A DNA stretch of 64,000 nt from Candidatus Dormiibacterota bacterium (GCA_035995545.1 DASYKI010000016.1:820335-884334), one strand, 5' to 3'; counted from the first letter of the stretch, positions 5,813 to 57,078 are shown. The notes: generated from the sequence alone by a model not told the origin. Made by a program: numbers and translations.

Positions 5813-8021
5813 TCGAGGAACCGCAGGCCGGCATCGAGGCGGTGCGGGCGGCGGGACGCGCGGCCATGGGCGTCACCGGCCAGGACGTGCGCGAGTCGCT
5901 GCGCAGCGCGCTGCGCGCATCGCACGCGGGGTGGTACCCGCTGCTGGCGCTGGGCCTCCTGGCCATCATCGACACCTTCCAGCTCTACGCCTACGTCACC
6001 CTCGGGCCCGACATCAGCGCCTCGCTGGGAATCAGCAAGACCGCGGTGACCATGATCCTGGTGCTCGACCAGCTGGCCATCGTGCTGGCCAGCCTGGCCG
6101 CCGCGGGGCTCGTCCAGCGCGTGCCGCGGCGCGGCCTGGTGGCCAGCACCACGGGCATGGCCTGGAGCCTGATGACGTTGCTCACCGGACTGGTGACGTC
6201 GATCTGGCAGCTCGGCCTGGTGATGGTCGCCGACGGCGCCAGCAGCGGGTCGGTGCACGCGGTGCACAAGCCGCTGCTGCTGGACACCTATCCGGCCGCG
6301 ACGCGCGTGCGTGTGCTCAGTGCGTACCAGGTCGCCGCGGTGACGGGGACCATCCTCTCGCCGGCGCTGGTCGCGCTCCTCACCGGAGTCGTGCATCTGG
6401 GCTGGCGTGGCGTCTTCGTGGTCATGGGCCTGATCTGCGTGGCCAGCAGCCTGATCGCGGTGCGGCTGCGCGATCCCGGTTTCGGCGGCCAGGACACCGG
6501 CCGGCTGCGCGACGCCGTGCGCGCCGACGCGACCCGCCGCGACGGTGGCGGCAGCGCAGCGCCGGTTCCGCAGAGTGGCGATCCCGCAACCAGCCTGCGC
6601 GTGATGGAGATCGTGCAGCGCCTGATGATCATCCCCACCATGCGGCGCACCCTCGCCGTCGCCGCCGCGCTCGGCGTGGGACTGGTGCCGCTCAACAGCT
6701 ACTTCTCCTTCTTCCTCGAACAGCGCTGGGGCCTGGGGCCGACGCAGCGCGCGCTGTTCTTCGCCCTGGTGCCTGTGTTCACCGCGATCGCGCTGGTGGT
6801 CGGCTCGCGACACGGCGAGTCGCTGTACCGCCGTGACCCTGCCCGGCTGATGCGCCTCGGCGCGCTGCTCATCGGTGGCGCCGCGGTCAGCCTGATCGCG
6901 GTGGTGGCGGCGCCGGTGTTCTGGATGATGGCGCTCGCCTTCGCGCTGACCAGCGCGATGCTGGCCGGCGTGGTGCCCGCGCTGTACACCGGTGCGCTGT
7001 CGGTGGTGGCGCCGCGCATGCGGCCGCACGCGTCGGCGCTGCTCGGCGTCTTCCTGGTTGCCGTCGGCGGCATCCTGGGCCTGCTGGTGCTGGGCAGCGC
7101 CGATTCGCGCTACGGGCCGGCGGGGTCGGTGGTGGCGGTGTGCTTCCCGTGCATCGTGGCCGCGCTGCTGATGCGCTCGGCGGCGGGCAGCGTCAACACC
7201 GATCTCGACAACCTCATCGACGAGATCGTCGAGGCGGAGCAGCTGACCCGCCTCGACGCTCGCGGCGTGCAGCTCCCGCTGCTGAGCTGCCGGCGGGTGA
7301 GCTTCTCCTACGGCGCGCTGCAGGTGCTCTTCGACGTCGACTTCAGCGTCGAGGACGGCGAGATGGTGGCCCTGCTCGGCACCAACGGCGCGGGCAAGTC
7401 GACGTTGCTGCGCGTCATCGCCGGCACCGGCCTGCCCTTCAGCGGCAGCGTGCGCTATCGCGGCGCGGACATCACCTATCTCGACGCCGAGCGCCGCGTG
7501 CGGCTCGGCATCGCCCAGGTCCCGGGCGGGCGCGCCGTGTTCGGGCGCATGTCCGTCGTCGACAACATGCGCGTCTTCGGCTTCACCCACGGACGCGACC
7601 GCCGCGCCGTCGACCGCGGTATCGAGCGCAGCCTGGCCGCGTTCCCCCGTCTCGGCGAGCGGCGCAACCAGGCGGCGGGAACGCTGAGCGGCGGCGAGCA
7701 GCAGATGCTGGCTCTGTCCAAGGCGCTCATCCTCGAGCCGAGACTGCTGTGCATCGACGAGCTCTCGCTGGGACTGGCGCCCAAGGTGGTCGGCGAGCTG
7801 CTCACCATGGTGCGCGCCATCAACGCGACGGGCACCGCGGTGGTGCTGGTCGAGCAGTCGGTCAACGTCGCGCTGTCGCTGGTCGAGCGTGCCTATTTCA
7901 TGGAGAAGGGGGAGGTGCGCTTCCAGGGCCGCGCGTCGGAGCTGCTCGACCGCGACGACCTGCTGCGCTCGGTGTTCCTCGAAGGCGCGGCGCGCGGTCT
8001 CGCCGGCGCCGGGACCGGGCG

Positions 8022-8025
<4 letters not shown>
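5809..8025 (+). CDS. Fusion protein: MFS-like polytopic membrane domain plus LivF-like ABC ATPase
   Basis: This is the real part of track ORF 4354..8025. Start candidates are TTG 5809 (TTGA overlap with the upstream stop at 5810-5812), GTG 5842 and ATG 5866. About 12 hydrophobic helices are followed by Walker A GTNGAGKST, signature LSGGEQQM and Walker B LLCIDELS. Confidence 0.85.
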
Positions 8026-10847
<2,822 letters not shown>

Positions 10848-10858: not shown

Positions 10859-13366
10859 GTGACCAACCACCGAGCCACCGTCGCGCCTCTCCGCGCGCTG
10901 CTCTGCGCCGCACTCGCCGTCGCCGCGTCGGCCGGTGCCGCACTCAGCTTCGTCCGCGCCGCCGGCGCCGAGGTGGCCGGCACCCCGATGAACCTCCACG
11001 TTGACGCGCAGGAGTACGCGGCGACGGCTCCCGCCGACCCGTACCAGCACGACGCGGCGGCCATCCACGTCAGCGTCGCCGGCGGCCAGGACACCACGCG
11101 CAGCTACGTCCACGTCGACCTGGCCGGGCTGGTCGGCGGCGCCATGCCGACCTCGGTCCTGCTCAGCCTGACTCCCAACGGCGACGCCGCCGCCAACGCC
11201 AACGGCAGCGCGGCGACGCTGCAGGCGTGTCCGCTGCTGGGATCGCTGGAGCCGTTCAACCCGACCTCGCCGCCCGGTTTCGACTGCACCAGCGCGGCGC
11301 ACGGCACGCCGGCCGCCGCGGGCACGTGGACCTTCGAGCTGGCCCCGCTGATGCAGCGCTGGCTGCTCGAAACCAACCGCGGCGTCGCCATCGTCGCCGA
11401 CCACAGCGCCGCGACCGCGACCTGGTTCACCGCCTTCGATAGGAGCAAGACACGGGCGATCGCGGTCGTGCCGGTGAGCGACTCGCCACCGCTGTCGACG
11501 TACACCTTCCCCGCGGTGCCGGCAGCGCCGCCACCCGCACCGCCGCCCGCGGCCGTGGCGCCGCCGTTCCTGTCAGTACCGGCCACAACTCCGGGGCCAC
11601 CGAGCGCGGCAACACCGGGGCCGTCGCCGTCGCCGAGCAGCGCCGCGAGTGCAGCCGGCGGAGCCGGCACCGGCACCCCACCCGCGCCGGGTGCCGCCAC
11701 CATGCACGTGGAACCCGCCAGCACCTGGCTGTGGTGGCTGCTCGGCTCCGTCCTGCTCGGCGCCGCAGCCGCGCTGGCCATGGTGGTGCAGCGCGCGGTG
11801 CGAGATGCCCACCGTCTTCCCGACGCCGCCGCGCTGCGCGCCGCCCTGCGCCATCCCGACCTGCGCCTCTCTCGCGCCGGCGCGCTGGTCATGATCGGCG
11901 CCGTCGTCGCCGTCGGCTTCTCCAACCGCCTCGCCGTCCAGGGCAGTCCCGCCGCAGCGGGCAGCTCCGGACCGCAGGCGGCTGCGGGCGCAACCCCCAG
12001 CAGCGGCGCAGCCGGCGGCGGCAACACCGGCGCCACGGCGCCACCACCCGGCGCAGCGAGCGGGCCCGCCGCCGCACAGAGCGCAGCCGCCGCCGCCCAG
12101 AGCGCCGCCGCCGCCGCAGCAGCAGCGGGAGCGCAGGCACCCACCGGCGACATCCCCGGCGTGACCGCCACCACCATCCGCATCGGCTTCATGACCGAGA
12201 CCAACCGCTCGGCGGGCAACGGCGCCATCGGAGCCAAGAACATCGGCGACTACGGCAACGTGCCCGCCCAGGCGCAGGCGATGGCCGACTGGCTCAACCG
12301 CAACGGGGGCATCGCCGGACGCCGGGTGATCCCGGTGATGGAGAACTTCGACGCCTCCAACACCGACCCCAACCAGGAGGCGGCGCTCTGCACCAAGTTC
12401 ACCCAGGACGACCACGTCTTCTCCGTCGTCGACATCGAGTCCAACCTCGACTACGGAGCGTGCTACGCGCACGCGCACACACTCGTGGTCGAGGCGCAGA
12501 CCTACCAGGGCGACACGCAATTGATGGACCACCTCGCCCCGTACGTGTTCGACTCGACCACGCCACCCAACGAGCGCGCCTTCCAGGTGCACGCCGACGG
12601 CCTTGCCCAGCAGGGATTCTTCGGCAAGACCGACAAGGTGGGCATCATCGTCGCCGACGATCCGCTGATCCGCCGCGACTTCACCGAGGTGGCCATGCCG
12701 CGCCTCGCCCGCGCCGGGGTGACCAATCCCGACCTCTACTACGTCAACCCCTACTCCGACACCGGCACCAAGGCGCGCGACCTGGGCACCGCGGTGACCC
12801 GCATGCACAGCAACGGCGACACCGAGGTCATGCTCTTCGGCGACTCCGGGGGCGGCGCCACCCTGATCACCATGGCCGCGGCCAAGGGCCAGGGCTGGTA
12901 CCCCAAGTGGGGTCTCGACACCAGCAGCGCACCCGGCGCGCTGGAGACCATCAGCCAGATCTCCGACGAGATGAAGACCGCGGTGGTGGTCGGCTACAAC
13001 CGCACCTACGACGCGGAGAGCGACAGGGGCGGCGAGCCGGTGCCGGCCTCGCCGCTGGAAAAGCTCTGCGTCGACACCTACAGGGCGGCGGGGATCAGCT
13101 TCGCCACCCGGCTCAACTCGGTGGTCGCCTACCGCTACTGCGACTACGCCTTCCTGCTGCACCAGGCCTCGCAGGGGCTCGGCGCCAACCTGAGCATCCA
13201 GACCCTGATGGCGCAGGCGTGGCACCTGGGCAGCTCGTACATGTCGGTCAACGCCTACCACGCCACCTTCAACGGCCGGCCCTACGGCACCGACGGCTAC
13301 CGCATGCTCGGCTACGACACCGGGTGCTCATGCTTCAAGTACAGCAGCCCGACCTACACGTTCTGA
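10859..13366 (+). CDS. Composite envelope protein: signal peptide + unknown beta-rich domain + Pro-rich linker + 2 TM helices + Ala/Gly linker + Liv-type (type I PBP) substrate-binding domain
   Basis: GTG 10859 is preceded by GAGGAGG (6-nt spacer) and lies 11 nt after the upstream stop. The signal peptide is LLCAALAVAASAGAALS. The TM helices are WLWWLLGSVLLGAAAALAMVV and ALVMIGAVVAVGF. The SBP-like part starts GVTATTIRIGF. Only the last 835 codons of track ORF 7889..13366 are real. Confidence 0.8.
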   Translation: MTNHRATVAPLRALLCAALAVAASAGAALSFVRAAGAEVAGTPMNLHVDAQEYAATAPADPYQHDAAAIHVSVAGGQDTTRSYVHVDLAGLVGGAMPTSVLLSLTPNGDAAANANGSAATLQACPLLGSLEPFNPTSPPGFDCTSAAHGTPAAAGTWTFELAPLMQRWLLETNRGVAIVADHSAATATWFTAFDRSKTRAIAVVPVSDSPPLSTYTFPAVPAAPPPAPPPAAVAPPFLSVPATTPGPPSAATPGPSPSPSSAASAAGGAGTGTPPAPGAATMHVEPASTWLWWLLGSVLLGAAAALAMVVQRAVRDAHRLPDAAALRAALRHPDLRLSRAGALVMIGAVVAVGFSNRLAVQGSPAAAGSSGPQAAAGATPSSGAAGGGNTGATAPPPGAASGPAAAQSAAAAAQSAAAAAAAAGAQAPTGDIPGVTATTIRIGFMTETNRSAGNGAIGAKNIGDYGNVPAQAQAMADWLNRNGGIAGRRVIPVMENFDASNTDPNQEAALCTKFTQDDHVFSVVDIESNLDYGACYAHAHTLVVEAQTYQGDTQLMDHLAPYVFDSTTPPNERAFQVHADGLAQQGFFGKTDKVGIIVADDPLIRRDFTEVAMPRLARAGVTNPDLYYVNPYSDTGTKARDLGTAVTRMHSNGDTEVMLFGDSGGGATLITMAAAKGQGWYPKWGLDTSSAPGALETISQISDEMKTAVVVGYNRTYDAESDRGGEPVPASPLEKLCVDTYRAAGISFATRLNSVVAYRYCDYAFLLHQASQGLGANLSIQTLMAQAWHLGSSYMSVNAYHATFNGRPYGTDGYRMLGYDTGCSCFKYSSPTYTF

Positions 13367-31714: not shown

Positions 31715-31734
31715 GCTTGGCGACCACGACGGCC

Positions 31735-47354: not shown

Positions 47355-47662
47355 CGGCGCCTGCCGCGCACGTTGTGAACCGCCATGTCGTCCTCAACCA
47401 ACGCCTGTCCCCGCTCGCCGATTATGCGCGCTTTCCGGCGTGTGCAAGCCTGCAAACACATGGGGGATGCAACGAAGCTGCAACGCTCGACGCGTTGACC
47501 GGCGGTTGATTCACAAAGGCTTCACCGGCTGCCGTCCGCGAAATGCGGGCGCGTCGCTGGACGTTTCGTCTAGCTTGCGGCCCGACGGTACGGGGCGGCG
47601 CCGCGCTTGCGGCGGAGCGGCCGGCGGCCCCATCATGTCGCCCCGGAACGGGTTGGATCGGG

Positions 47663-49204
47663 TTGGAGGAGCCTGCCATCAGCAACATCGCCGAGCTGTT
47701 CGACGACGGCCTGCGCCGTCACGGCGAGCATCCCTCGCTCTGGTTCGAGGGACGCTGGTACGGCAGCACCGAGCTCAACCGCGCCGGCCACGGCCTCGCC
47801 GGCGGGCTGCGCGACCTCGGCCTCCAGCCGGGCGAGCGCGTCGTGGTGACGATGATGAACTGCCCCGAGGTGGGCATCAGCTACATGGGCGCCTGGACCG
47901 CGGGGCTCGCCGTCGTGCCGGTGCTCTTCCTGCTCACCGCCGAAGAGCTGCGCATGATCGCCGAGGACTCCGGCGCCACCGCCATCGTCACCACGCCGGA
48001 GCTGCTGCCCAAGGTGCGCGAGGTGGCCGCGGCGGTGCCGTCGCTGCGCCACGTGATCTGCGCCGGCGGTGGCGCCGGCGACGGCGTGCTCGACTTCGCC
48101 GAGCTCTGCGACACCGCTGCCGTCGACACGCCCCTGCCCGTCGACGACGGCGAGGCCGCGGTGATCCTCTACACGTCCGGCACCACCGGGCGTCCCAAGG
48201 GCGTGATGCTCACCCACGGCAACCTGCACGCCATGGCCGAGAACGTGCACGCGGCCTGGGACCCGGGTGACGGCCACGTCGGCCTGGCCTGCCTGCCCCT
48301 CTCGCACGTCTACGGGTTGAGCACGACTCTGGCAGGAACCTACCGCCGCGGCCAGGCGGTGCTGATGCGGTGGTTCGACCCCACGCAGGTGCTGCAGCTC
48401 ATCGAGGAGCACCGCGTCACCATGACCGCGCTGGTGCCGGCGATGATGGTCGGGCTGCTCGACCATCCCGACCGGCCGTCGCGCGACCTCTCGTCGCTGC
48501 AGTTCGTCATCAGCGGCGCGGCGCCGTTGCCACTCGACCTGCTGCAGCGCTTCGAAAGCGCCTTCGGCTGCACCGTCCTGCAGGGCTACGGGCTCAGCGA
48601 GAGCGCGGCCCAGTGCGCGCTGAACACGCCGCAGGCCAACCGTCCCGGCTCGGTGGGGCGGCCGGTGCCCGGTGTCGAGGTGGCCATCCTCGGCAGCGAC
48701 GGCGCGCCGCTCGCCGCCGGTGAGGACGGCGAGATCGCCATGCGCGGCGCCAACGTGATGCGCGGCTACCACGGCATGCCCGAGGAGTCGGCGAAGACCG
48801 TCGTCGACGGCTGGCTGCGCACCGGCGACGTCGGCCACCTCGACGCCGACGGCTTCCTCTACGTGCTCGACCGCAGCAAGGACCTGATCATCCGCGGCGG
48901 GTTCAACATCATCCCGCGCGACGTCGAGGAGGTGCTGGTGGCCCATCCCGCGGTGTCGCAGGCGGCGGTGATCGGCTTGCCGCACGAGCGACTCGGCGAG
49001 GTGGTGCACGCAGTCGTCGTCCTGACACCCGGCGCCAGTGCCACGGACGAGGAGCTGATCGCCCACTGCCGCGAGCGGCTCGCCTCGTACAAGTGCCCGC
49101 AGAGCCTGGAGCTTCGCGGCGGGCTGCCGACCAACAGCACCGGCAAGGTGCTCAAGCGCCAGCTGCGCGAGGAGCACGTCGCAGCGGCCGCCACGGCCTC
49201 ATGA
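47663..49204 (+). CDS. AMP-dependent acyl-CoA synthetase/ligase (FadD-like)
   Basis: The AMP-binding motif is ILYTSGTTGRPKGVMLTHGN. Other blocks are GYGLSE and TGDVGHLDADGFLYVLDRSKDLIIRGGFNI. The start is uncertain: TTG 47663 is assumed, and a perfect GGAGGAG sits 6 nt before ATC 47678. Confidence 0.88.
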   Translation: MEEPAISNIAELFDDGLRRHGEHPSLWFEGRWYGSTELNRAGHGLAGGLRDLGLQPGERVVVTMMNCPEVGISYMGAWTAGLAVVPVLFLLTAEELRMIAEDSGATAIVTTPELLPKVREVAAAVPSLRHVICAGGGAGDGVLDFAELCDTAAVDTPLPVDDGEAAVILYTSGTTGRPKGVMLTHGNLHAMAENVHAAWDPGDGHVGLACLPLSHVYGLSTTLAGTYRRGQAVLMRWFDPTQVLQLIEEHRVTMTALVPAMMVGLLDHPDRPSRDLSSLQFVISGAAPLPLDLLQRFESAFGCTVLQGYGLSESAAQCALNTPQANRPGSVGRPVPGVEVAILGSDGAPLAAGEDGEIAMRGANVMRGYHGMPEESAKTVVDGWLRTGDVGHLDADGFLYVLDRSKDLIIRGGFNIIPRDVEEVLVAHPAVSQAAVIGLPHERLGEVVHAVVVLTPGASATDEELIAHCRERLASYKCPQSLELRGGLPTNSTGKVLKRQLREEHVAAAATAS

Positions 49205-49376: not shown

Positions 49377-51203
49377 ATGCGCATCCTGCTGTCCACTCTC
49401 GGACGTTATGCGCCTGTCGGTGTGCTGGCGGGCATCCAGCTTGCGGTGATCGCCATGGCGCCCTCGGTGGCGCCGTCCAACCTGGCCGAGGCGCCGGCGG
49501 CGATCGGCAGCAGCGCCGACGCCGGCACGGGAGCCGGTGGCGCCGGCGGCGCGGGCGGTGCTGCATCCGGTGGCGCCGCGGGTGCGGTCACCGGACCGGT
49601 GACGGGAGGCGCGGTCGCCGGAGGGGCCGCTGCGGCCGGCGGCCCGGCCGCGGCGCACGCCGCCGCGGCGGGACCGGTGGCGGCCAGCGGCGACACCTCG
49701 CACTGCGTCGGCGGCCGGGAGTTCGACGTGGCCCTTGCCTGGTTCGCGCCGCCGTGCGTGGCGGGGACGCCCGGCGGCACCGACATCGCCAACGGCGGCG
49801 CGACCTACCGCAGCGGGGTGACCGGCAACACCATCGAGATCGTCGACTACATCACCAACTACGGCGCCGAGATCAACGCCATCCTGGCGGCGCAGCACCA
49901 GCTGGTGACCGCCGAGGAGGCCACCAAGTACGACGCCGCCGTCCAGAACTTCCTCAACAAGAAGTTCGTGCTCTGGGGCCGGAAGATCCACATCGACACC
50001 GTCGCCGGCCAGTGCAACTACCAGGACGACAACTGCATGATCCCCGAGCTCGAAGGGGTGATCAAGAACTACCACCCGTACATGATGTTGTGGTTCACCA
50101 CGGTGTGCCCCGAGTGCTTCAGCTACATCGCCAGCCGCGGTGTCATCGCCGTCGGTGGGCTGGGCTTCAGCGGCGACTTCGCCAAGGCCAATGCGCCGTT
50201 CTACTACTCGGCGACGGGCTCCTCGACGCTCATCGAGGAGGCCTTCGCGGAGTGGTGGTGCTCGAGCATGTCGAGCGCCAACTCCAGCCGGGTGGTGACC
50301 TACACGGGCGACCAGAACGTCAGCCAGAAGATGAACGGCCGAAAACGCGTCCTCGGCTTCATCTCGCCCAACAAGCCGGACAACGAGAACACCATCCAGA
50401 ACTACCTCTGGCCGCGCCTCAAACAGCTCTGCGGTGAGGATCCCAGCACCTTTCACCACTACTGGTACGCCCAGGACATCAACACCGCGGCGCAGCAGGT
50501 GCAGGCCGGCAACGCGCAGATGGACACGCCGACCAACCCGGCCACCTCGGTGGTCTGCATCTGCGACGTGGTCGCGCCCGAGTTCACCTACCAGGGCGAG
50601 CAGAACAACAACTACTGGCCGGAGAACATCATCGCCGACGTGCAGGGCATGGGCCAGGACCCCTCGGCGCAGCCCTACGACGCCGCCTTCTCCTGTCCCA
50701 ACGGCAACGCCAGCAATCCCTGCTCCTTCGACGACGCGGTGGGAGTCACCGTCGCCGATCCCCCGGAGGACCAGAACAACGACCCCGGCATCCGCATCTG
50801 GCACGAGGGCGGCGGCACCGGGCCGCTTCCCGGCGACTCCCAGGGTGACCAGCTCAGCGGGATCCTCGCCTCGTCGCTGTCCGCACAGTGGGTGATGATG
50901 GCCACCCTGATCGAGAACGCGGGACCGCGCTTGGAGCCCTACTCGATGCAGAAGGCGGCGCTGCAGATCCCGCCGATCAGCGGTGGCAACCACCCGGTGC
51001 TGCAGTTCAGCGCCGACGACTGGCACTGGACGCGAAGCGTGCGCGTGGTGTGGTGGGACGCGCATCGCAAGTCGTCGTACAACAACCAGAACGGCACCTG
51101 GGTGAGCTGGCCGAGCCCGACCACCTGGTTCACCATGCGCAGCTTCCCCGACGAACCGGGCGGGCCGCCAGGCATCCCGCCGGCGCGGCAGCGAACCTCG
51201 TGA
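49377..51203 (+). CDS. TM-anchored, Cys-rich divergent Liv-type (type I PBP-like) substrate-binding protein
   Basis: ATG 49377 has GGAGG 9 nt upstream. There is an N-terminal TM helix (VGVLAGIQLAVIAMAPSV), a Gly/Ala-rich linker, then GVTGNTIEIVDYI, the same kind of start as in SBP 10859..13366. I count 12 Cys in the ectodomain. Confidence 0.7.
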   Translation: MRILLSTLGRYAPVGVLAGIQLAVIAMAPSVAPSNLAEAPAAIGSSADAGTGAGGAGGAGGAASGGAAGAVTGPVTGGAVAGGAAAAGGPAAAHAAAAGPVAASGDTSHCVGGREFDVALAWFAPPCVAGTPGGTDIANGGATYRSGVTGNTIEIVDYITNYGAEINAILAAQHQLVTAEEATKYDAAVQNFLNKKFVLWGRKIHIDTVAGQCNYQDDNCMIPELEGVIKNYHPYMMLWFTTVCPECFSYIASRGVIAVGGLGFSGDFAKANAPFYYSATGSSTLIEEAFAEWWCSSMSSANSSRVVTYTGDQNVSQKMNGRKRVLGFISPNKPDNENTIQNYLWPRLKQLCGEDPSTFHHYWYAQDINTAAQQVQAGNAQMDTPTNPATSVVCICDVVAPEFTYQGEQNNNYWPENIIADVQGMGQDPSAQPYDAAFSCPNGNASNPCSFDDAVGVTVADPPEDQNNDPGIRIWHEGGGTGPLPGDSQGDQLSGILASSLSAQWVMMATLIENAGPRLEPYSMQKAALQIPPISGGNHPVLQFSADDWHWTRSVRVVWWDAHRKSSYNNQNGTWVSWPSPTTWFTMRSFPDEPGGPPGIPPARQRTS

Positions 51204-53521
51204 TGCCGGCCGCGCTCCGGGGCCTGGAGCCACAGCTCCAGCGCCTGCAGCGCCTCCGCGACGCGCCGCAGCTCCGCCCTGCCCCGGTGCGCTGGGCGGC
51301 GGTGGGGGTGATCTTCCTGCTCGTCTTCCAGTCGATCTTCCACCTCACCGTCGGCAACTACATCAACGGGCTCATGCTCGGCGCCCTCTACGGCGTCCTG
51401 GCGGTGGGCATCATCCTCATCTACCGGGCGCTGCGGATCATCAACTTCGCGGCGGCGGCGGTCGGCTCGGTGCCGGCCATCTTCGCGTTCATGGCGGACA
51501 TCAAGGGCTGGATCAACTACGTCGAGGCGCTGCCCATCGCGTTGATCGGCGGCGCGCTCGCCGGGCTGCTGACCGACGTGGTGGTGATGCGGCGTTTCGC
51601 GCGCGGCTCGCGGCTGATCGCCACCGTCGCCACCATCGGCGTCGCCCAGAGCTTCGCCATCCTCGCCTTCTTCATCCCCATCTGGATGGGCAAGGACGCG
51701 GCCACCCCCTCGTACGTGCCGACACCGTGGAGTGAGTGGCGCATCACCGACGGGCGCGGCGCGCCGCTGCTCACCGGCAACCAGGTCTTCGCCCTGGTGT
51801 CGGTGCTGGTCGCCTCGGTCGCGGTCTGGGCCTTCCTGCGCTACAGCCGCATCGGCATCGGCCTGCGCGCCGCGTCGGAGAACGCCGACCGCGCAGGGCT
51901 GCTGGGCATCCCCGTGCGCACCGTGCAGACGGTGGCATGGACGCTGGCCGGTGCGCTCGCCGCGCTGGCCATCTACGGCCAGGGTCCGTTGATCGGCGTG
52001 CCGCGTGACACCACGCTGGGCTTCAACACGCTGCTGTACGGGCTCGCCGCCGCCGTGATCGCGGGCATGGAGGGGATCTGGACAGCGCTCGCCGCCGGCC
52101 TGGCCATCGGCCTGGTGATCTTCGGGTCGGTGGCCAACTACGGCGAATCCGACCTCGCCTCGGCGCTGATGCTGGTGATCATCATCGCGGCGCTGCTGGC
52201 ACGGCGCAGCCAGCTGGCGCGCGCCTACACCACCGGCGTGGCGACGTGGCGCGAGGTCAAGATCTTCCGTCGCGTCCCGTCGCAGCTGGTCCACCTGCCC
52301 GAGGTGTGGGGCGCCAAGCTGGGCATCGGCGTCGCCTTCCTGGCGCTGGCACTGCTGCTGCCGCTCAAGCTGGTCGGCGCCGCCGACGTGCCCATGCTGA
52401 CCATCCTGCCGGTGTACGGGATCATCGCCGTGTCGCTGGTGGTCCTGACCGGCTGGGCCGGCCAGATCTCGCTGGGACAGTTCGGCATCGTGGGCATGGC
52501 GGCGGGCGTGTCCGGTGGACTTGTGGCCAACCATGGCATCGACTTCTTCGCCGCCCTGGCCATTGCCGTTCTGGTGGGCGCGCTGTCGGCGGTGGTCATC
52601 GGGCTGCCGGCGCTGCGCATCCAGGGCCTGTACCTGGCGGTGACCACGCTGGCCTTCGGCTTCGTCGTTCCCGACTTCATGCTCAACAATCACTACGCTG
52701 TCGGGGCGCACATCATGCCCACGGGCTACGCGGCGCAGATCCGGCGGCCCCTGCTCTACGGCCGCTTCGACCTCAACGACGACACCATCTTCTATTTCGT
52801 CTGTTTGGGATTGCTGGTGCTGGCGATGGCGGCCGCGGCGGCGTTCCGCCGCTTTCGCAGCGGGCGCATCCTGCTCGCCGCGCGCGACAACCAGCGCGCC
52901 GCCATGGTCTACGGCATCCACGTCACCCGGGCACGCCTGGCCGCCTTCGCCGTGTCCGGCGCCATCGCCGGCCTGGCCGGAGTGATGATCCCGTACGCCC
53001 ATCACACGGTGATCCCCGCCGACTACAGCGCGCAGTACGGCATCGGCATCTTCCTCGCCGCCGCCATCGGCGGTCTCGGCTCCCTGCCCACCGCGGTCGC
53101 CGGCGCCATGCTGCTGGAGGCGACGGTGGTCTTCGGTCCGCGGCTGTACACGCTGCTCGGTCCAACCTGGGCGACCGTGCTGCCGCTGATGGTGACCGGA
53201 CCCCTGCTGGTGCTGCAGCTCACCTTCTACCCCGGCGGCCTCGCCCAGCAGGTCCACGACGTGCGCGACCGGTTCCTGCGCTGGGTGGCGCGGCGGCGGG
53301 GGATCGAGGTCCCCTCACTGCTGGCCGACCGCGCGGCCACCGAACAGCAGCCGGCCTTCAGCGAGGCGCTGGGCGGCGCCACCGAGGAGCTGGAGCGCAC
53401 CCACACGTACGACATCGTCTGCCCGGTGTGCTCGGAGGGATTGTCGATGGAGCAGGCGCGATTGCATCCGCACCTGCGCGTGCCGCAGGAGACCGCCGCG
53501 GTCGCCGGCGGGGGAGGGTGA
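51200..53521 (+). CDS. Fused LivH-like + LivM-like ABC permease
   Basis: GTG 51200 or ATG 51203 overlaps the SBP stop (GTGATG). The LivH-like block is LYGVLAVGIILIYRALRIINFAAAAVG. The LivM-like block is VVLTGWAGQISLGQFGIVGMAAG. There is a soluble C-terminal tail with CPVCSEG. Confidence 0.88.
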   Translation: MMPAALRGLEPQLQRLQRLRDAPQLRPAPVRWAAVGVIFLLVFQSIFHLTVGNYINGLMLGALYGVLAVGIILIYRALRIINFAAAAVGSVPAIFAFMADIKGWINYVEALPIALIGGALAGLLTDVVVMRRFARGSRLIATVATIGVAQSFAILAFFIPIWMGKDAATPSYVPTPWSEWRITDGRGAPLLTGNQVFALVSVLVASVAVWAFLRYSRIGIGLRAASENADRAGLLGIPVRTVQTVAWTLAGALAALAIYGQGPLIGVPRDTTLGFNTLLYGLAAAVIAGMEGIWTALAAGLAIGLVIFGSVANYGESDLASALMLVIIIAALLARRSQLARAYTTGVATWREVKIFRRVPSQLVHLPEVWGAKLGIGVAFLALALLLPLKLVGAADVPMLTILPVYGIIAVSLVVLTGWAGQISLGQFGIVGMAAGVSGGLVANHGIDFFAALAIAVLVGALSAVVIGLPALRIQGLYLAVTTLAFGFVVPDFMLNNHYAVGAHIMPTGYAAQIRRPLLYGRFDLNDDTIFYFVCLGLLVLAMAAAAAFRRFRSGRILLAARDNQRAAMVYGIHVTRARLAAFAVSGAIAGLAGVMIPYAHHTVIPADYSAQYGIGIFLAAAIGGLGSLPTAVAGAMLLEATVVFGPRLYTLLGPTWATVLPLMVTGPLLVLQLTFYPGGLAQQVHDVRDRFLRWVARRRGIEVPSLLADRAATEQQPAFSEALGGATEELERTHTYDIVCPVCSEGLSMEQARLHPHLRVPQETAAVAGGGG

Positions 53522-53523
53522 CC

Positions 53524-55149
53524 GTGGAGCCCGGCCCGTTCCTCAGCTGCCGCACACTCGACGTCGGCTACGCAGGGGTGCAGGTGCTGTTCGGCGTCGA
53601 CTTCGACGTGGAGCGCGGCGAGATCGTCGCCCTGCTCGGCACCAACGGCGCCGGCAAGTCCACGCTCCTGCGCGCCATCTCGGGGCTGGTGCATCCCAGC
53701 AGTGGCACCATCGTCTTCGACGGCAGGGTGATCACGGAAGCCGAGCCGCACCAGACCGCGCGCATGGGCATCGTGCACGTCCCCGGCGGCCGCTCCGTGT
53801 TCCCGACGATGACCGTCTCCGACCATTTCAAGGCGGCCAGCTGGCTGCTCGGCGGCGACTGTCCCGACGTCAGCGCGCGCACCGACGAGGTGCTGCAGCG
53901 CTTCCCGCACCTGCAGCGGCGCCAGCACACCATGGCCGGCAACCTCAGCGGCGGTGAGCAGCAGATGCTGGGGCTGGGCATGGCGTTCCTGGCCCGTCCC
54001 AAGCTGCTGGTCATCGACGAGCTCTCGCTGGGACTTGCGCCCGCGGTGGTCGAGCTGCTGCTCGACATGGTGCGGGCCATCCACACCGAGGGGTCGACCA
54101 TCGTGCTCGTCGAGCAGTCGGTCAACCTCGCCCTCACCCTGGCGCAGCGCGCCTACTTCATGGAGAAGGGCGAGGTGCGATTCCAGGGCCCCGCCCCGCA
54201 GCTGCTCGAACAGCGCGAGCTGCTGCGCTCCGTCTTCCTCGAAGGCGCCGCCGCCGCGCTGCCGGGTGCTGCGCCGAGTCGCGACGTCAGCCTGCGCGGG
54301 CGCGACGCGCGCACCGCCGATGCCGATGCCGATGCCGCACAACCTCCGCTGCTCGAAGTGCGCGGCCTGAGCCGCAGCTTCGGTGGCGTCGTCGCCGTCG
54401 ACGGCGTCAGCTTCGCCCTGCAGCCGCACGGCATCCTCGGCTTCATCGGACCCAACGGCGCCGGCAAGACGACGCTGTTCGACATGATCAGCGGCCTGCT
54501 GCCCGTCGGCGCCGGCGAGATTCGCCTGCGCGACCGCGACATCACCCGCTGGTCGGCGCCGCGACGTGCCATGGCGGGGCTCGGTCGCTCGTTCCAGGAT
54601 GCGCAGCTCTTCCCCTCACTGACGGTGGCCGAGAACCTGGCCATCGGCCTGGAGCGCCACGTCGCGGTGCGCGACCACCTCGCCGCCATGCTGGCGCTGC
54701 CCGCCATCCAGGAGTCCGAGCGCCAGGTCGCCTTCGCCGTCGGTGACCTGGTCGAGCTCTTCGGCCTCGGCAACTACCGCGACAAGTTCGTCGGCGAACT
54801 GTCGACCGGCTCCCGGCGCATCGTCGACCTGGCCATGGCGCTGGCCCACGACCCCGACGTGCTGCTCCTCGACGAGCCCTCGTCCGGCATCGCCCAGCGC
54901 GAGACGGAGGCGCTGGTGCCGCTGCTGCGTCGCGTGCGCAGCGAGACGGGATGCGCGCTGCTGGTGATCGAGCACGACATGCCGCTGATCACCACCCTCG
55001 CCGACGAGCTGATCGCGCTCGACCTCGGCCGTGTCATTGCCCGCGGCCGTCCCGACCAGGTGGTCAACGACCGCGAGGTGGTGCGGGCCTACCTCGGCGG
55101 GGACGTCGCCGCCATCCAGCGCTCCGGCGTGTTGGGAGGAATCGCATGA
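53524..55149 (+). CDS. Fused LivF-like + LivG-like tandem ABC ATPase
   Basis: The start is GTG 53524 (GGGGGAGGG upstream), with GTG 53518 as an alternative. Domain 1 has GTNGAGKST, LSGGEQQM and LVIDELS. Domain 2 has GPNGAGKTT, LSTGSRR and LLLDEPS. There are long identical peptide blocks with genes 5809..8025 and 8022..10847. Confidence 0.9.
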   Translation: MEPGPFLSCRTLDVGYAGVQVLFGVDFDVERGEIVALLGTNGAGKSTLLRAISGLVHPSSGTIVFDGRVITEAEPHQTARMGIVHVPGGRSVFPTMTVSDHFKAASWLLGGDCPDVSARTDEVLQRFPHLQRRQHTMAGNLSGGEQQMLGLGMAFLARPKLLVIDELSLGLAPAVVELLLDMVRAIHTEGSTIVLVEQSVNLALTLAQRAYFMEKGEVRFQGPAPQLLEQRELLRSVFLEGAAAALPGAAPSRDVSLRGRDARTADADADAAQPPLLEVRGLSRSFGGVVAVDGVSFALQPHGILGFIGPNGAGKTTLFDMISGLLPVGAGEIRLRDRDITRWSAPRRAMAGLGRSFQDAQLFPSLTVAENLAIGLERHVAVRDHLAAMLALPAIQESERQVAFAVGDLVELFGLGNYRDKFVGELSTGSRRIVDLAMALAHDPDVLLLDEPSSGIAQRETEALVPLLRRVRSETGCALLVIEHDMPLITTLADELIALDLGRVIARGRPDQVVNDREVVRAYLGGDVAAIQRSGVLGGIA

Positions 55150-56195
55150 ACAGCCGCGCTCTGCGACGCGCCATCTACGCGCCGCTGCTCGCCCTGGTCG
55201 CGCTGCTCGCCCTGGGCTCGGCAACGCCGGCGCGGGCCGCCGCCGCAACGCTGGTCCAGTACGGCTGGTGGACCGAGGCGAACTACGTCAACGGCGTCAA
55301 CGGTCCAACCGACCAGACGCCCGACAAGGCCGACCTGCACGCATCGATCGGGCCCATGGTCTACGACGACCCCTACTCGCTCCAGAACGACAGCAAGACC
55401 GGGACCACCGAGGTCTCGGCGGTGATGTTCAACCTGCCGCAAGCCGTGCCCACCACGGTCGACCCGGCCGCGCCGGTGGCCAACCTCCGGCTGACCGTCG
55501 ACCCCGCCTACCCGCCGGCCGGCACGGTGACCGTGCTCGCCTGCCGGACCCTGGAGGGCTGGTCCGCCGAGCTGGGTGGCAACTGGACCCAGCGCGCCTC
55601 CTACCAGAGCGGCTGCGCGGTTGGCGTCACCAACGACGGCGGCAAGAGCTACGACTTCACCGTCCTGGCCAGCCAGGTCAAGGGTGGCCGCACCGTCGAC
55701 ATGGCCATCGCACCGACGCTGGATCCCACCGCCCTGCCCTTCAAGGTGTGGTTCAAGCCGCCCACCGGCGCCGATCTCACCACCCTGGCACTGCCGGTGG
55801 CGGCGCCCGACACCTTCGGGGTGCCCCAGCAGCAGGCCGACACGCAGATCACGGCACTGGCGGACACCGGCAGCGGCTACCCGGTGACCGCGTTCTCATC
55901 CGGCGGCGGCGCCCTACCGGCTCCCCCCGCCGCCGTGCCCCCGGCCGCGGCACCGCCGGCGCCGGCGGCACCGCCCGCAGCGATTCCCCGAGCGGCGACG
56001 CCGCAGCTCGCCGGGGCCCGACAGGTCCTCGACACCGGGGCACGCATCCTCGCCGGCGTGCTGTTGCTGGCCGTCGTGCTGGCGGTGATGTCAGCGGCGG
56101 GCCTCGACCTGCAGCGGCTGCTCACCCCCGCTGGACAGGTCGGTGGCGTGGGCCGGTTCCGCCGCCAGCGAACGGGACCTCCGCTGCCGCTCTGA
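55146..56195 (+). CDS. Secreted unknown-domain protein with a Pro-rich linker and a C-terminal TM anchor (paralog of the N-terminal half of 10859..13366)
   Basis: ATG 55146 overlaps the upstream stop (ATGA). The signal peptide is LLALVALLALGSATPARA. A beta-rich domain of about 200 aa with 2 Cys (VLACRTL, QSGCAVG) is followed by a Pro/Ala-rich linker and the TM helix ILAGVLLLAVVLAVMSAAGL. Confidence 0.75.
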   Translation: MNSRALRRAIYAPLLALVALLALGSATPARAAAATLVQYGWWTEANYVNGVNGPTDQTPDKADLHASIGPMVYDDPYSLQNDSKTGTTEVSAVMFNLPQAVPTTVDPAAPVANLRLTVDPAYPPAGTVTVLACRTLEGWSAELGGNWTQRASYQSGCAVGVTNDGGKSYDFTVLASQVKGGRTVDMAIAPTLDPTALPFKVWFKPPTGADLTTLALPVAAPDTFGVPQQQADTQITALADTGSGYPVTAFSSGGGALPAPPAAVPPAAAPPAPAAPPAAIPRAATPQLAGARQVLDTGARILAGVLLLAVVLAVMSAAGLDLQRLLTPAGQVGGVGRFRRQRTGPPLPL

Positions 56196-56304: not shown

Positions 56305-57078
56305 ATGGACGCAGTCGACACCGGGGTGCGCGTCGAGCGCCGCGGCGGCGTGCTCTGGCTGCGCCTGCACCGCCCCGAGTCGCGCAACGCGCTGACCCTG
56401 GGGGACATGCACGCGCTGGCCACGGCGCTGCGCGACGTGGACGCCGGCGAGGACCGCTGCGCGGTGATCACCGGGCACGAGCCGGGCACCTTCTGCTCGG
56501 GGTTCCGGCTCGACGAGGGCGCCGCCGGCGACATGGCCTCGGGGCGCGCCAAGCAGGCCGCCGACGATCTCTTCGCCCTCCTGCCCGTCGCCCCCATCCC
56601 GGTGATCGCGGTCGTCGACGGCCCCGCACGGGGCGCCGGCTGCGAGCTCGCCCTGCGCTGCGACCTGCGCATCGCCTCCGACCGGGCCAGCTTTGGCATT
56701 CCCGCCGCCCGCCTGGGCGTGCCCTACACACCGCCGAGCATCGCCTTCCTGGTGCGCCGCTACGGCCAGGGACCGGTGGCGCAGCTCTTCTACGCCGCCT
56801 CGATCCTCGACGGCGACGCGGCGCTCCGCAGCGGGCTGGTGCACGAGCTGGTCGGCGCTCGCAAGCTGCCGTCCCGTGTCGCCGAGCTGACCGAGCGCAT
56901 CGCCGCGTCGGCGCCACTGGTGCAGCGCTTCTTCAAGGCGGCCGTCGCCGCCGCCGAGGGAGTGGGGGAGGAGGCCGCCATCGACGCCGCCCTCGCCCGG
57001 GTCACCGCCAGCGAGGACTTCGCCGAGACGCTGCGCGCCATCGGCGAGCGCCGCGAGCCGCGCTTCACCGGGGGCTAG
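56305..57078 (+). CDS. Enoyl-CoA hydratase/isomerase (crotonase) family protein
   Basis: ATG 56305 has GGAGGA upstream. The sequence reads LHRPESRNALT..FCSGFRL..VIAVVDGPARGAGCELALRCDLRIA. The 3' end overlaps the GT39 gene by 14 nt (convergent). Confidence 0.88.
   Translation: MDAVDTGVRVERRGGVLWLRLHRPESRNALTLGDMHALATALRDVDAGEDRCAVITGHEPGTFCSGFRLDEGAAGDMASGRAKQAADDLFALLPVAPIPVIAVVDGPARGAGCELALRCDLRIASDRASFGIPAARLGVPYTPPSIAFLVRRYGQGPVAQLFYAASILDGDAALRSGLVHELVGARKLPSRVAELTERIAASAPLVQRFFKAAVAAAEGVGEEAAIDAALARVTASEDFAETLRAIGERREPRFTGG

What the first reader, a model, noticed from the sequence alone, without database searches (positions are those of the whole stretch)
49377..56195. Second, paralogous Liv-like system built from the same parts in a different fusion pattern
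Seen in sequence: system 2 consists of SBP (49377), LivH::LivM (51200, overlapping the SBP stop), LivF::LivG (53524, 2 nt after the stop) and the unknown-domain protein (55146, ATGA overlap). System 1 (5809-13366) consists of MFS::LivF, LivH::LivM::LivG and unknown-domain::SBP. The ATPase domains share long identical peptide blocks (RAYFMEKGEVRFQG and LLRSVFLEGAA in the LivF parts; RSFQDAQLF in the LivG parts; the tails AYLGGDAVAIARSG and AYLGGDVAAIQRSG differ at three positions). They also share the unusual LSTG(T/S)RR signature. Every component thus occurs twice, but is fused to different partners. This is classical Rosetta-stone evidence that all of them, including the unknown secreted domain, form one machine. 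System 2 is flanked by an acyl-CoA synthetase and a crotonase. System 1 is flanked by a protease and a hydrolase. Inference: this is a distinct subfamily of HAAT-type importers with an obligatory extracytoplasmic accessory domain.
Basis: partly seen in the sequence, partly recalled or inferred. Interest (0 to 1): 0.8.

Follow-up and report, generated by a model that had tools for sequence, protein, structure and literature searches.

The report
LIV-type importer with a CBM-like fourth subunit
The window holds two ancient paralogues of an unannotated branched-chain-amino-acid-type ABC importer whose binding protein is tethered to the membrane and which carries an extra, membrane-anchored, carbohydrate-binding-module-like domain outside the cell; this extra part is common in the subfamily but not universal, and its role and the transported substrate are unknown.

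Summary
Genes, junctions, quoted peptide blocks and Liv-type domains are all as described.

- **The "SBPs".** Neither matches Pfam, NCBIfam or PDB sequences. An AlphaFold2 model of the system-2 protein is a type-I periplasmic binding protein (Foldseek 4kv7, E 4.5e-12). The two SBP domains are remote homologues (hhalign 94.9%).
- **The "unknown" domains.** They show no BLAST similarity. A 48-sequence family profile links them (hhalign 96.8%, E 2.8e-10). The model is a beta-sandwich closest to a chondroitin-sulfate CBM (8wab) and the CBM96/DNRLRE alginate module (7vbo).
- **The fusion.** System 1's last protein is exactly accessory plus SBP, joined through their two membrane helices. This is a topologically consistent Rosetta stone.
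- **Conservation.** The order SBP, LivHM, LivFG, accessory recurs in metagenome-assembled genomes of Acidimicrobiales, Mycobacteriales/Frankiaceae, Dormibacterota and Chloroflexi.
- **"Obligatory" fails.** Of 50 testable operons, 37 have the accessory gene adjacent. The 13 without form one clade.
- **"Every component twice" fails.** The MFS domain occurs only in system 1.

Verdict: a new variant of a known kind. Substrate and accessory function remain inferred.

The parts
49377..51203 (+). System 2 receptor gene. It encodes an N-terminal TM anchor (aa 14-32, nt 49416-49472), an Ala/Gly-rich stalk (nt 49473-49691) and a type-I periplasmic-binding-protein domain with 12 Cys (nt 49692-51176).
   Evidence: No Pfam, NCBIfam or PDB sequence hit. 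AF2 pLDDT 80.6, pTM 0.80. Foldseek 4kv7, 3eaf, 4mpt, 4evs and 4n03, E 1e-12 to 1e-9, target-normalised TM-score 0.66-0.70. Hydropathy and Cys positions. At least 143 homologues, none with a functional name: labelled 'hypothetical protein' or unnamed.
51200..53521 (+). System 2 permease, a LivH::LivM fusion (LivH-like nt 51332-52219, LivM-like nt 52307-53269). It has a cytoplasmic C-terminal tail carrying CPVC-x12-HPH (nt 53420-53473).
   Evidence: BPD_transp_2 in two stretches, E 1e-50. Partial LivH, LivM, UrtB and UrtC hits. 34% identical to the system 1 permease over 666 aa. Tail motif.
53524..55149 (+). System 2 ATPase, a LivF::LivG fusion (LivF half nt 53524-54258 with LSGGEQQ; LivG half nt 54340-55146 with LSTGSRR and a BCA_ABC_TP_C tail).
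   Evidence: ABC_tran twice and BCA_ABC_TP_C. UrtE, UrtD, LivG and LivF models. 57% and 53% identity to the system 1 halves. Signature counts.
55146..56195 (+). System 2 accessory protein. It has a Sec-type signal peptide (nt 55146-55244), a CBM96/DNRLRE-like beta-sandwich with invariant GWW and a Cys133/Cys157 pair (nt 55248-55784), a Pro/Ala stalk (nt 55785-56033), a TM helix (nt 56034-56123) and a conserved cytoplasmic tail ...GVGRFRRQRTGPPLPL (nt 56124-56192).
   Evidence: AF2 core pLDDT above 90. Foldseek 8wab E 1.3e-5 and 7vbo E 1.4e-4. Family alignments. 72 cluster representatives found. ATGA overlap with the ATPase gene.
5809..8025 (+). System 1 MFS::LivF fusion (MFS about nt 5926-7188, LivF nt 7270-8022). 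Its TTG start overlaps the stop of the upstream PF00144 gene.
   Evidence: MFS_1 E 1.4e-25 and ABC_tran. LivF model E 3.7e-57. The fusion is conserved in L080 and L081. Junction.
8022..10847 (+). System 1 LivH::LivM::LivG triple fusion (LivG nt 10035-10844, signature LSTGTRR).
   Evidence: BPD_transp_2 twice, ABC_tran and BCA_ABC_TP_C. LivG model E 8e-61. Conserved in L080 and L081.
10859..13366 (+). System 1 accessory::SBP fusion. It has a signal peptide, a DNRLRE-like beta-sandwich (nt 11030-11473, Cys124/Cys143), a Pro-rich stalk, TM1 (nt 11726-11788), a conserved cytoplasmic loop, TM2 (nt 11870-11926), an Ala-rich stalk and a PBP domain (nt 12137-13363).
   Evidence: hhalign to the accessory family 96.8%, aa 68-210. 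hhalign to the SBP family 94.9%, aa 433-792. Weak DNRLRE_dom hits in 5 of 11 members. Hydropathy. The fusion is kept in all full-length homologues.
47543..49204 (+). Acyl-CoA synthetase immediately upstream of system 2. It is context only and a possible substrate hint.
   Evidence: AMP-binding and AMP-binding_C. Best PDB match is feruloyl-CoA synthetase 8wev, E 1.7e-88, followed by FadD5 and FadD13. A homologue lies within 10 kb in 13 of 79 loci.
56305..57078 (+). Crotonase-family enoyl-CoA hydratase downstream of system 2. Context only.
   Evidence: ECH_1 E 9e-38. PDB matches are generic enoyl-CoA hydratases. A homologue lies within 10 kb in 11 of 79 loci.
4421..5812 (+). Beta-lactamase-family (PF00144) serine hydrolase without a signal peptide, translationally coupled to the first system 1 gene. 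Context only.
   Evidence: PF00144 E 2.3e-67. Same position in L080; same position with a 4-nt overlap in L081.

Best explanation
System 2 (49377-56195) is a translationally coupled four-gene operon for a divergent HAAT/LIV-type (TC 3.A.1.4-like) binding-protein-dependent ABC importer.

**Shown**
- A fused LivH-LivM permease.
- A fused LivF-LivG ATPase with one canonical signature (LSGGEQQ) and one family-specific signature (LSTGxRR).
- A receptor that folds as a type-I periplasmic binding protein. It is held on the membrane by an N-terminal helix and an Ala/Gly stalk of about 75 residues.
- A fourth protein made of a secreted CBM96/DNRLRE-like beta-sandwich on a Pro/Ala stalk of about 80 residues, one membrane helix and a conserved 23-residue cytoplasmic tail.
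- System 1 (5809-13366) is an ancient paralogue of the same machine. There the accessory protein and the receptor are one polypeptide joined through their two membrane helices, and the ATPases are fused to an MFS domain and to the permease.

**Inferred**
- The beta-sandwich works outside the cell, beside the tethered binding protein, as a stoichiometric subunit of the transporter.
- It most likely acts as a co-receptor or docking module. It would bind a glycan or other polymer, either envelope or substrate source, and keep receptor and ligand close to the permease.
- Its membrane helix and tail would hold it on the transporter.
- The accessory was probably present before systems 1 and 2 split and was lost once in one Acidimicrobiales clade.
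- The substrate is unknown. The neighbouring acyl-CoA synthetase and crotonase weakly suggest an organic acid, fatty or hydroxycinnamate-like, for system 2. The coupled PF00144 hydrolase suggests an amide, ester or peptide-like compound for system 1.
For: - **Domain identities:**
- **Paralogy of ATPases and permeases:**
- **PBP fold:** AF2 and Foldseek (338 PDB hits at E<=1e-3, led by LIV-binding, aromatic-acid and fatty-acid SBPs and ANF receptors).
- **Homology of the two PBP domains:** hhalign 94.9%, E 4e-8, 326 columns.
- **Homology of the two accessory domains:** hhalign 96.8%, E 2.8e-10, 130 columns, with the Cys pair aligned. The control against the SBP profile gave 0.3%.
- **Beta-sandwich fold:** AF2. 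Foldseek 8wab and 7vbo at probability 1.00. There are independent weak DNRLRE_dom hits in the system 1 family (5 of 11 members) and in one system 2 family member. CBM96 is itself related to DNRLRE domains (PMC9971899).
- **Topology:** hydropathy, stalk composition and 12 Cys in the PBP.
- **Linkage to the transporter:** the ATGA overlap. Gene order SBP-HM-FG-accessory across the 79 loci, with the accessory present in 37 of 50 testable operons. In the gene-called relatives the accessory gene follows an ABC ATPase gene with a 4-nt overlap. The accessory::SBP fusion is conserved in all full-length system 1 homologues. A further ABC_tran::accessory fusion exists, P0197.
- **Ancient split and single loss:**
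Against: - No experiment bears on transport, substrate or subunit association.
- 13 of 50 operons work, presumably, without an adjacent accessory gene. It is therefore dispensable in at least one clade, or replaced by something unrecognised or encoded elsewhere.
- The accessory fails the DNRLRE_dom score cut-off (16 bits against 34). Its fold match is moderate (target-normalised TM-score 0.51-0.58, rmsd 6-7 A), so carbohydrate binding is only an analogy.
- System 1's beta-sandwich lacks the GWW motif, and its cytoplasmic loop lacks the GxGRF tail motif.
- Neighbourhood hints for the substrate are weak. The acyl-CoA synthetase lies nearby in 13 of 79 loci and the crotonase in 11 of 79.
- The system 1 protein itself was not modelled.
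- P0197 and the L033 fusion could be frameshift artefacts of noisy assemblies.
- The genomic context of divergent accessory-family members outside the fetched loci could not be examined.
Confidence: 0.7

Rival explanations
1. The accessory is an envelope anchor or spacer rather than a co-receptor. Its CBM-like domain would bind the cell's own wall glycan, and with its long stalk it would fix or position the transporter and its tethered binding protein within the thick actinobacterial envelope. It would have no contact with the substrate.
For: CBM-like fold. Long Pro/Ala stalks on both extracytoplasmic parts. A clade that lacks it still keeps the other three genes, so transport itself does not need it.
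Against: Nothing distinguishes this from the co-receptor idea with present data. The strongly conserved cytoplasmic tail and the covalent fusion to the PBP in system 1 argue for a tight functional coupling to the transporter rather than general wall anchoring.
Confidence: 0.2
2. The accessory is a regulatory subunit. The ectodomain would sense an external cue, and the conserved cytoplasmic tail (GxGRFxRxRxGxPP.L) would bind the nucleotide-binding domains or the permease tail to gate ATPase activity.
For: The tail is among the most conserved parts of the family across roughly 25-30% identical members (G334, G336, R337, F338 and R342 nearly invariant). An ABC_tran::accessory fusion exists.
Against: The system 1 fusion has a different cytoplasmic loop without this motif. 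The permease C-terminal CPVC...HxH tail does not co-vary strictly with the accessory: it is present in about 21 of 37 operons that have the accessory and in 0 of 13 without it. There is no known precedent in HAAT systems.
Confidence: 0.15
3. The accessory gene is only a conserved neighbour, an unrelated secreted membrane protein, and not part of the transporter. The system 1 'fusion' would be a gene-call artefact.
For: None specific. Function is unknown, and 13 of 50 operons lack it.
Against: The fusion ORF is uninterrupted in the window and in eight or more homologues from independent assemblies. Its topology is self-consistent. Stop-start overlaps are present in the window and in the gene-called relatives. 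All 41 accessory hits in the fetched loci sit next to LivFG-type genes.
Confidence: 0.04

Closest known systems
LivJ/K-LivHMGF of E. coli and the HAAT family (TC 3.A.1.4), including UrtABCDE
   Same: Two BPD_transp_2 permease domains. A LivG-type ATPase with the BCA_ABC_TP_C tail plus a LivF-type ATPase. A type-I (cluster B) binding-protein receptor.
   Different: The permeases and ATPases are each fused. The receptor is about 500 residues, Cys-rich, TM-tethered on a long stalk and unrecognised by Peripla_BP_6/ANF_receptor models. The LivG-half signature is LSTGxRR. There is a fourth, extracytoplasmic CBM-like subunit, and an MFS fusion in system 1.
CouPSTU of Rhodopseudomonas palustris (HAAT-type uptake of lignin-derived hydroxycinnamates, PMC3610893) and related aromatic-acid SBPs (4evs, 4q6w, 4eyg)
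   Same: A Liv-type ABC system encoded beside a CoA ligase and an enoyl-CoA hydratase. SBPs of this group are among the best fold matches. The window's synthetase is closest to a feruloyl-CoA synthetase structure.
   Different: No detectable sequence relation of the receptor. The crotonase here is generic, not a demonstrated hydratase/lyase. The neighbourhood is conserved in only a minority of loci. CouPSTU has no accessory beta-sandwich.
CBM96 / DNRLRE domain (alginate-binding module TM6-N4, PDB 7vbo; NF033679) and the chondroitin-sulfate-binding CBM 8wab
   Same: Beta-sandwich fold (Foldseek probability 1.00). Weak sequence signal to DNRLRE_dom in both window families.
   Different: Below the family's score cut-off. 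It is not attached to a glycan-degrading enzyme but to a membrane helix, or to a binding protein, in an ABC transporter operon. It has its own conserved features: GWW, a Cys pair and the GxGRF tail. Ligand untested.
ABC importers with tethered or fused substrate-binding domains (GlnPQ and OpuA of Gram-positives, TM-anchored SBPs of archaea); from general knowledge, not tested here
   Same: The receptor is kept at the membrane next to its permease instead of diffusing.
   Different: Those belong to other ABC families (PAAT, QAT) with type-II binding domains. None carries an additional CBM-like ectodomain subunit.

Membership tests
HAAT / LIV-type ABC importer (TC 3.A.1.4) | Two membrane domains of the BPD_transp_2 (LivH and LivM) type | tested here: met
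   PF02653 in two stretches in 51200-53521 (E 1e-50) and in 8022-10847 (E 3e-54). Partial LivH, LivM, UrtB and UrtC matches, all below the equivalog cut-offs.
HAAT / LIV-type ABC importer (TC 3.A.1.4) | A LivG-type plus a LivF-type ATPase, the former with the BCA_ABC_TP_C tail | tested here: met
   PF00005 twice and PF12399. UrtE model 309 bits (cut-off 285.8). UrtD 301.5 (cut-off 304.1). LivG 296 (cut-off 362). LivF 258 (cut-off 441). This is family-level membership, not an equivalog of any named system.
HAAT / LIV-type ABC importer (TC 3.A.1.4) | Receptor recognised by sequence as Peripla_BP_6 / ANF_receptor | tested here: not met
   No Pfam or NCBIfam family at E<=0.01. No PDB sequence relative, even with family profiles.
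HAAT / LIV-type ABC importer (TC 3.A.1.4) | Receptor with the type-I (two Rossmann-like lobes) periplasmic-binding-protein fold | tested here: met
   AF2 pTM 0.80. Foldseek 4kv7 E 4.5e-12, target-normalised TM-score 0.68, and hundreds of LIV-BP and ANF-receptor-type hits. The system 1 domain is linked by hhalign at 94.9%.
HAAT / LIV-type ABC importer (TC 3.A.1.4) | ATP-driven uptake of amino acids, urea, amides or organic acids | not testable with these tools
   Needs uptake assays and ligand screening.
CBM96 / DNRLRE domain | Sequence match to NF033679 above its cut-off (34 bits) | tested here: not met
   System 1 protein 16.1 bits, E 0.0087. Best family member E 0.0026. One of 48 system 2 family members at E 0.0014.
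CBM96 / DNRLRE domain | Beta-sandwich fold of 7vbo | tested here: met
   Foldseek 7vbo E 1.4e-4, probability 1.00, target-normalised TM-score 0.51. 8wab E 1.3e-5, target-normalised TM-score 0.53-0.58. Only the system 2 protein was modelled.
CBM96 / DNRLRE domain | Binds an acidic polysaccharide; appended to a carbohydrate-active enzyme | not testable with these tools
   Binding is untested. The architecture differs: the domain stands alone as a membrane protein or is fused to a PBP.
Rosetta-stone (domain-fusion) functional linkage | Two separate proteins in one system occur as a single polypeptide in a homologous system, with compatible topology | tested here: met
   The system 1 fusion equals the accessory (hhalign 96.8%) plus TM-loop-TM plus the PBP (94.9%). 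Topology. Conserved in homologues.

The most novel reading that the evidence does not exclude
The CBM-like subunit is a second, polymer-binding receptor. It would capture an acidic glycan, humic or lignin-derived polymer or its breakdown products at the cell surface and hand ligands to the tethered binding protein. This would make the system a 'two-receptor' ABC importer, a Gram-positive functional counterpart of surface glycan-binding proteins that feed transporters. It would be widespread in uncultured soil and peat Acidimicrobiia, Mycobacteriales and Dormibacterota.
Probability: 0.2. Interest if true: 0.75.

Novelty: new variant of a known kind. Interest (0 to 1): 0.58.

Why it matters
- LIV/HAAT-type importers are textbook five-component systems, and an additional conserved extracytoplasmic subunit has not been described for them as far as the searches here show.
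- Two protein families are placed into a functional frame. One is the roughly 600-residue tethered binding protein, with at least 143 homologues. The other is the roughly 340-residue accessory, with 72 cluster representatives. Both currently have no Pfam or NCBIfam model; the receptor homologues that carry a label are called 'hypothetical protein'.
- The systems are common in uncultured soil and peat Actinomycetota, often in several copies per genome. Knowing their substrate would therefore improve metabolic reading of those metagenome-assembled genomes.
- The natural fusions give ready-made constructs for structural work on how an accessory ectodomain cooperates with a binding protein.

Tried and rejected
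- **Pairwise BLASTP.** The two unknown domains and the two SBPs gave nothing.
- **Shallow profile.** An 11-sequence profile of the accessory family against the system 1 family matched only the TM segment (22%). The link appeared only after adding distant representatives.
- **PDB sequence searches.** Single sequences and profiles gave only low-complexity or DARPin-repeat noise.
- **Locus scans for divergent accessory-family members.** A4 was rejected in genome contigs, and A5 and A7 in metagenome contigs, as too divergent. Two metagenome scans, with A6 and P0161, found no relatives. Whether distant accessory relatives always sit beside Liv genes is therefore untested outside the 79 loci.
- **Permease tail co-variation.** I tested whether the permease's C-terminal CPVC...HxH tail co-varies with the accessory, as a hint of tail-tail contact. 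It is absent from all 13 accessory-less operons but also from about 16 of 37 operons with the accessory, so it is not diagnostic.
- **Substrate from neighbours.** The acyl-CoA synthetase and crotonase are generic by NCBIfam and conserved nearby in only 13 and 11 of 79 loci. I rejected this as a firm assignment.
- **LivG signature.** A PDB search with the LivG half gave no informative comparison for the signature motif.
- **RNA and promoter scans.** Rfam found no riboswitch near either system, only a tRNA at 63117-63190. The promoter and terminator scan was uninformative.
- **Literature.** Searches for a described HAAT accessory subunit found nothing relevant.


Full report
**1. What is in the sequence**

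The window is 72% G+C. At 49377-56195 four + strand genes are packed without gaps:
- a 608-aa protein (49377-51203);
- a 773-aa protein whose GTG/ATG start overlaps the previous stop (51200-53521);
- a 541-aa protein that starts 2 nt after the stop (53524-55149);
- a 349-aa protein with an ATGA overlap (55146-56195).

At 5809-13366 lie three larger genes: 5809-8025, 8022-10847 (ATGA overlap) and 10859-13366.

Pfam and NCBIfam give these domains:
- 51200-53521: two BPD_transp_2 domains (LivH-like and LivM-like).
- 53524-55149: two ABC_tran domains, the first LivF/UrtE-like, the second LivG/UrtD-like with the BCA_ABC_TP_C tail.
- 5809-8025: MFS_1 plus a LivF-like ATPase.
- 8022-10847: two BPD_transp_2 domains plus a LivG-like ATPase.

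The LivF parts are 57% identical, the LivG parts 53% and the permeases 34%.

**2.

Neither 'SBP' and neither 'unknown domain' matches any Pfam or NCBIfam model at a significant level. None matches a PDB sequence. BLASTP finds nothing between the two SBPs or between the two unknown domains. Their identity and homology had to be established.

*(a) The SBP*
- The system-2 protein has at least 143 homologues of about 600 aa. Those that carry a label are called hypothetical; none has a functional name.
- A 42-sequence alignment (A3) gave an AlphaFold2 model with pLDDT 80.6 and pTM 0.80. Residues 1-100 are disordered behind an N-terminal helix. Residues 106-600 form an alternating beta/alpha two-lobe domain.
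- Foldseek against the PDB returns 338 hits at E<=1e-3, all of the type-I periplasmic-binding-protein / ANF-receptor class. The best is the Leu/Ile/Val-binding protein 4kv7 (E 4.5e-12, target-normalised TM-score 0.68). Other hits are 3eaf, 4mpt, the aromatic-acid SBPs 4evs/4q6w/4eyg and the fatty-acid SBP 4n03.
- The A3 profile aligns to residues 433-792 of the system-1 protein family (A2) with hhalign probability 94.9%, E 4e-8, over 326 columns.
- Both are therefore divergent type-I binding proteins and remote homologues at about 18% identity.

*(b) The unknown domain*
- The word-indexed search found only 11 close relatives. Their shallow profile did not reach system 1.
- A full HMMER scan of 1.84 billion cluster representatives with that profile found 72 representatives. 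Nearly all are 310-360 aa and match end to end.
- A 48-sequence alignment (A4) shows the family plan:
  - a signal peptide;
  - an invariant GWW;
  - a domain of about 180 residues with a conserved 'AC...W...G.W..RP...C' core;
  - a Pro/Ala-rich linker;
  - one TM helix;
  - a C-terminal G.GRF.R.R.G.PP.L motif.
- This profile matches residues 68-210 of the system-1 protein at 96.8%, E 2.8e-10, over 130 columns. The Cys pair aligns (Cys133/157 with Cys124/143).
- The same profile against the SBP family, used as a control, gives 0.3%.
- The AlphaFold2 model (pLDDT 78, core above 90) is a beta-sandwich spanning residues 35-213.
- Its only significant PDB neighbours are a chondroitin-sulfate-binding CBM (8wab, E 1.3e-5) and the alginate-binding CBM96 module 7vbo (E 1.4e-4). 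Both have probability 1.00 and target-normalised TM-scores of 0.51-0.58.
- CBM96 is itself about 30% identical to DNRLRE domains (PMC9971899).
- Independently, 5 of 11 system-1 family members give weak DNRLRE_dom hits (best E 0.0026, below the cut-off). One system-2 family member does too (E 0.0014).
- The 'unknown secreted domain' is thus a distant CBM96/DNRLRE-like beta-sandwich, homologous in both systems.

**3. Topology and the fusion**

- The accessory protein has a Sec-type signal peptide (…ARA/AAA), the ectodomain, a stalk of about 80 residues (20% Pro, 28% Ala), a TM helix and a 23-residue tail.
- The SBP has a conserved N-terminal TM helix, a stalk of about 75 residues (40% Ala, 28% Gly) and the binding domain with 12 cysteines.
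- The system-1 protein reads: signal peptide, beta-sandwich, Pro-rich stalk, TM1, conserved 27-residue loop, TM2, Ala-rich stalk, binding domain.
- That is exactly accessory plus SBP joined tail to head, with both ectodomains outside. The fusion is topologically meaningful.
- It is kept in all full-length homologues and in the gene calls of two other assemblies.

**4. Occurrence elsewhere**

A scan of one genome per GTDB species with the SBP profile returned 79 loci. All are metagenome-assembled genomes, mainly Acidimicrobiales, Mycobacteriales/Frankiaceae and unclassified Actinomycetota. One each is labelled Dormibacterota, Chloroflexi and Acidobacteriota.

Six-frame ORFs were searched with the family HMMs and the window proteins:
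- The order SBP, LivH::LivM, LivF::LivG, accessory recurs throughout.
- All 41 accessory hits lie next to a LivFG-type gene. These include second, convergent copies in L033, L048 and L072.
- At least four loci carry an SBP-like gene with no transporter genes beside it (L011, L012, L014, L018).

Among 50 operons, counting the window, with an intact ATPase gene and at least 1 kb downstream, 37 have the accessory and 13 do not:
- In a neighbour-joining tree of the ATPase, the 13 form one clade nested among accessory-bearing lineages.
- System 1's ATPase domains are 48-53% identical to every system-2-type ATPase. Those are 59-82% identical to the window's system-2 ATPase.
- This puts system 1 outside the whole system-2-type family in that comparison.
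- Since both sides carry the beta-sandwich, the simplest reading is an ancestral accessory lost once. This is an inference from a simple distance tree.

Gene calls in public assemblies show the accessory gene overlapping the ATPase stop by 4 nt in Dormibacterota, Mycobacteriales and closer relatives.

One representative, P0197 (664 aa), is an ABC_tran::accessory fusion. L033 shows the same in one frame. These may be real or frameshift artefacts.

**5. How it most likely works**

*Shown:* a Liv-type permease and ATPase set, a tethered type-I binding protein, and a tethered CBM-like ectodomain. These are genetically and, in system 1, covalently linked.

*Inferred:*
- It is a binding-protein-dependent importer. 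This follows from established knowledge of HAAT systems.
- The accessory is a stoichiometric extracytoplasmic subunit. I consider a co-receptor or docking role most likely. Such a module would bind a glycan or polymer and keep the receptor and ligand source near the permease.
- The rivals are a pure envelope anchor or spacer, and a regulatory subunit acting through the conserved tail. Present data cannot separate these three.

*Substrate:*
- System 2 sits between an acyl-CoA synthetase and a crotonase. The synthetase's best PDB match is feruloyl-CoA synthetase 8wev, E 1.7e-88, followed by FadD5 and FadD13.
- This is the same enzyme pairing (CoA ligase plus enoyl-CoA hydratase) as in the cluster linked to the hydroxycinnamate importer CouPSTU (PMC3610893).
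- However, these neighbours recur in only 13 and 11 of 79 loci and are generic by NCBIfam. An organic-acid substrate is a hint, not a finding.
- System 1 is translationally coupled to a cytoplasmic PF00144 serine hydrolase and preceded by a subtilase. Both are conserved in relatives. This suggests a different, amide-, ester- or peptide-like substrate.

**6. Comparison with known systems and novelty**

- The permease and ATPase parts pass family-level tests for HAAT/LIV systems, though not the equivalog cut-offs of LivHMGF or UrtBCDE.
- The receptor passes by fold but fails by sequence.
- The accessory passes the CBM96/DNRLRE test by fold only.
- I found no description of a fourth, extracytoplasmic subunit in Liv-type transporters. 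The families have no Pfam or NCBIfam model, and the receptor homologues have no functional name in public records.
- I therefore class this as a new variant of a known kind: real, conserved and unannotated, with function still to be shown.

Three of its statements need correction: 'obligatory', 'every component twice' and 'unknown domain'.

**7. Limits**

- Only two structures could be predicted, and the system-1 protein was not one of them.
- The models rest on 42-48 sequences.
- Loci are metagenome-assembled genomes, some with frameshifts.
- Accessory absence was judged on 10-kb flanks only.
- The tree is a BLOSUM-distance NJ tree without support values.
- Divergent accessory relatives outside the fetched loci could not be placed in genomic context.

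Noticed in passing
window 5809-8025 (MFS about 5926-7188, LivF 7270-8022); also L080 4954-7179, L081 4948-7152, L086 end: An MFS_1 transporter domain with about 9-12 predicted helices is fused N-terminally to the LivF-type ATPase. The fusion is conserved in two other assemblies. L086 encodes a 972-aa MFS+ABC_tran+ABC_tran protein. An MFS domain covalently tied to an ABC importer's ATPase is unusual, and its role is unexplained.
   Followed up: partly
window 53420-53473 (aa 741-758 of the LivH::LivM protein): The permease ends in a cytoplasmic tail with a CPVC-x12-HPH motif, a possible small zinc site. The motif (C-P-[VTA]-C...H-x-H-L) is conserved in about 21 of 37 accessory-bearing operons and in none of the 13 accessory-less ones. 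It is also absent from the Frankiaceae-type operons.
   Followed up: partly
P0197 (664 aa); L033 13719-16610: An ABC_tran (LivG-like) domain is fused in frame to a full accessory protein. The former signal peptide would then act as a membrane helix. This could be a third genuine fusion pattern or a frameshift in a noisy assembly.
   Followed up: partly
window 4421-5812 and 2832-4409: A Beta-lactamase-family (PF00144, SxxK 'SITK') protein without a signal peptide has its TGA stop overlapping the TTG start of the first system-1 gene. A Peptidase_S8 subtilase lies just upstream. The PF00144 gene is in the same position in L080 and L081, and the subtilase in L081, which suggests a hydrolase-importer unit.
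   Followed up: partly
window 13450-14991 (+): A PucR-type regulator (C-terminal HTH_30, E 1e-21) lies directly downstream of system 1. It is a candidate regulator of that operon.
   Followed up: no
window 46224-47354 (-): A hybrid Response_reg-HisKA_3-HATPase_c protein lies upstream of the system-2 neighbourhood. The same gene, next to a Response_reg-EAL protein, occupies this position in L082.
   Followed up: no
window 57065-59128 (-): A PMT_2/YkcB-like membrane glycosyltransferase lies two genes downstream of the accessory. Pro/Ala/Thr/Ser-rich stalks such as those of the accessory and the SBP are typical O-mannosylation targets in Actinobacteria (general knowledge). The gene is not conserved at this position in L082.
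   Followed up: no
L011, L012, L014, L018; L017 4307-6133 and 9599-11461; L021 2254-4050: SBP-like paralogues occur without adjacent transporter genes, or in tandem upstream of an operon. Several metagenome-assembled genomes contribute two loci. The receptor family is multi-copy, and some copies may be orphan receptors that share a transporter.
   Followed up: no
L081 1-1933: In the assembly that carries close relatives of both window systems (CAZCJX01), a further LivH::LivM::LivG-type triple fusion (962 aa) ends just upstream of the subtilase that precedes the system-1 orthologue. That genome therefore has at least three such systems.
   Followed up: no
window 30518-32086 (-) and 63117-63190 (+): Another ABC ATPase-like ORF gives a weak hit with the LivG half (E 2.5e-20). 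A tRNA gene is the only Rfam match in the window.
   Followed up: no
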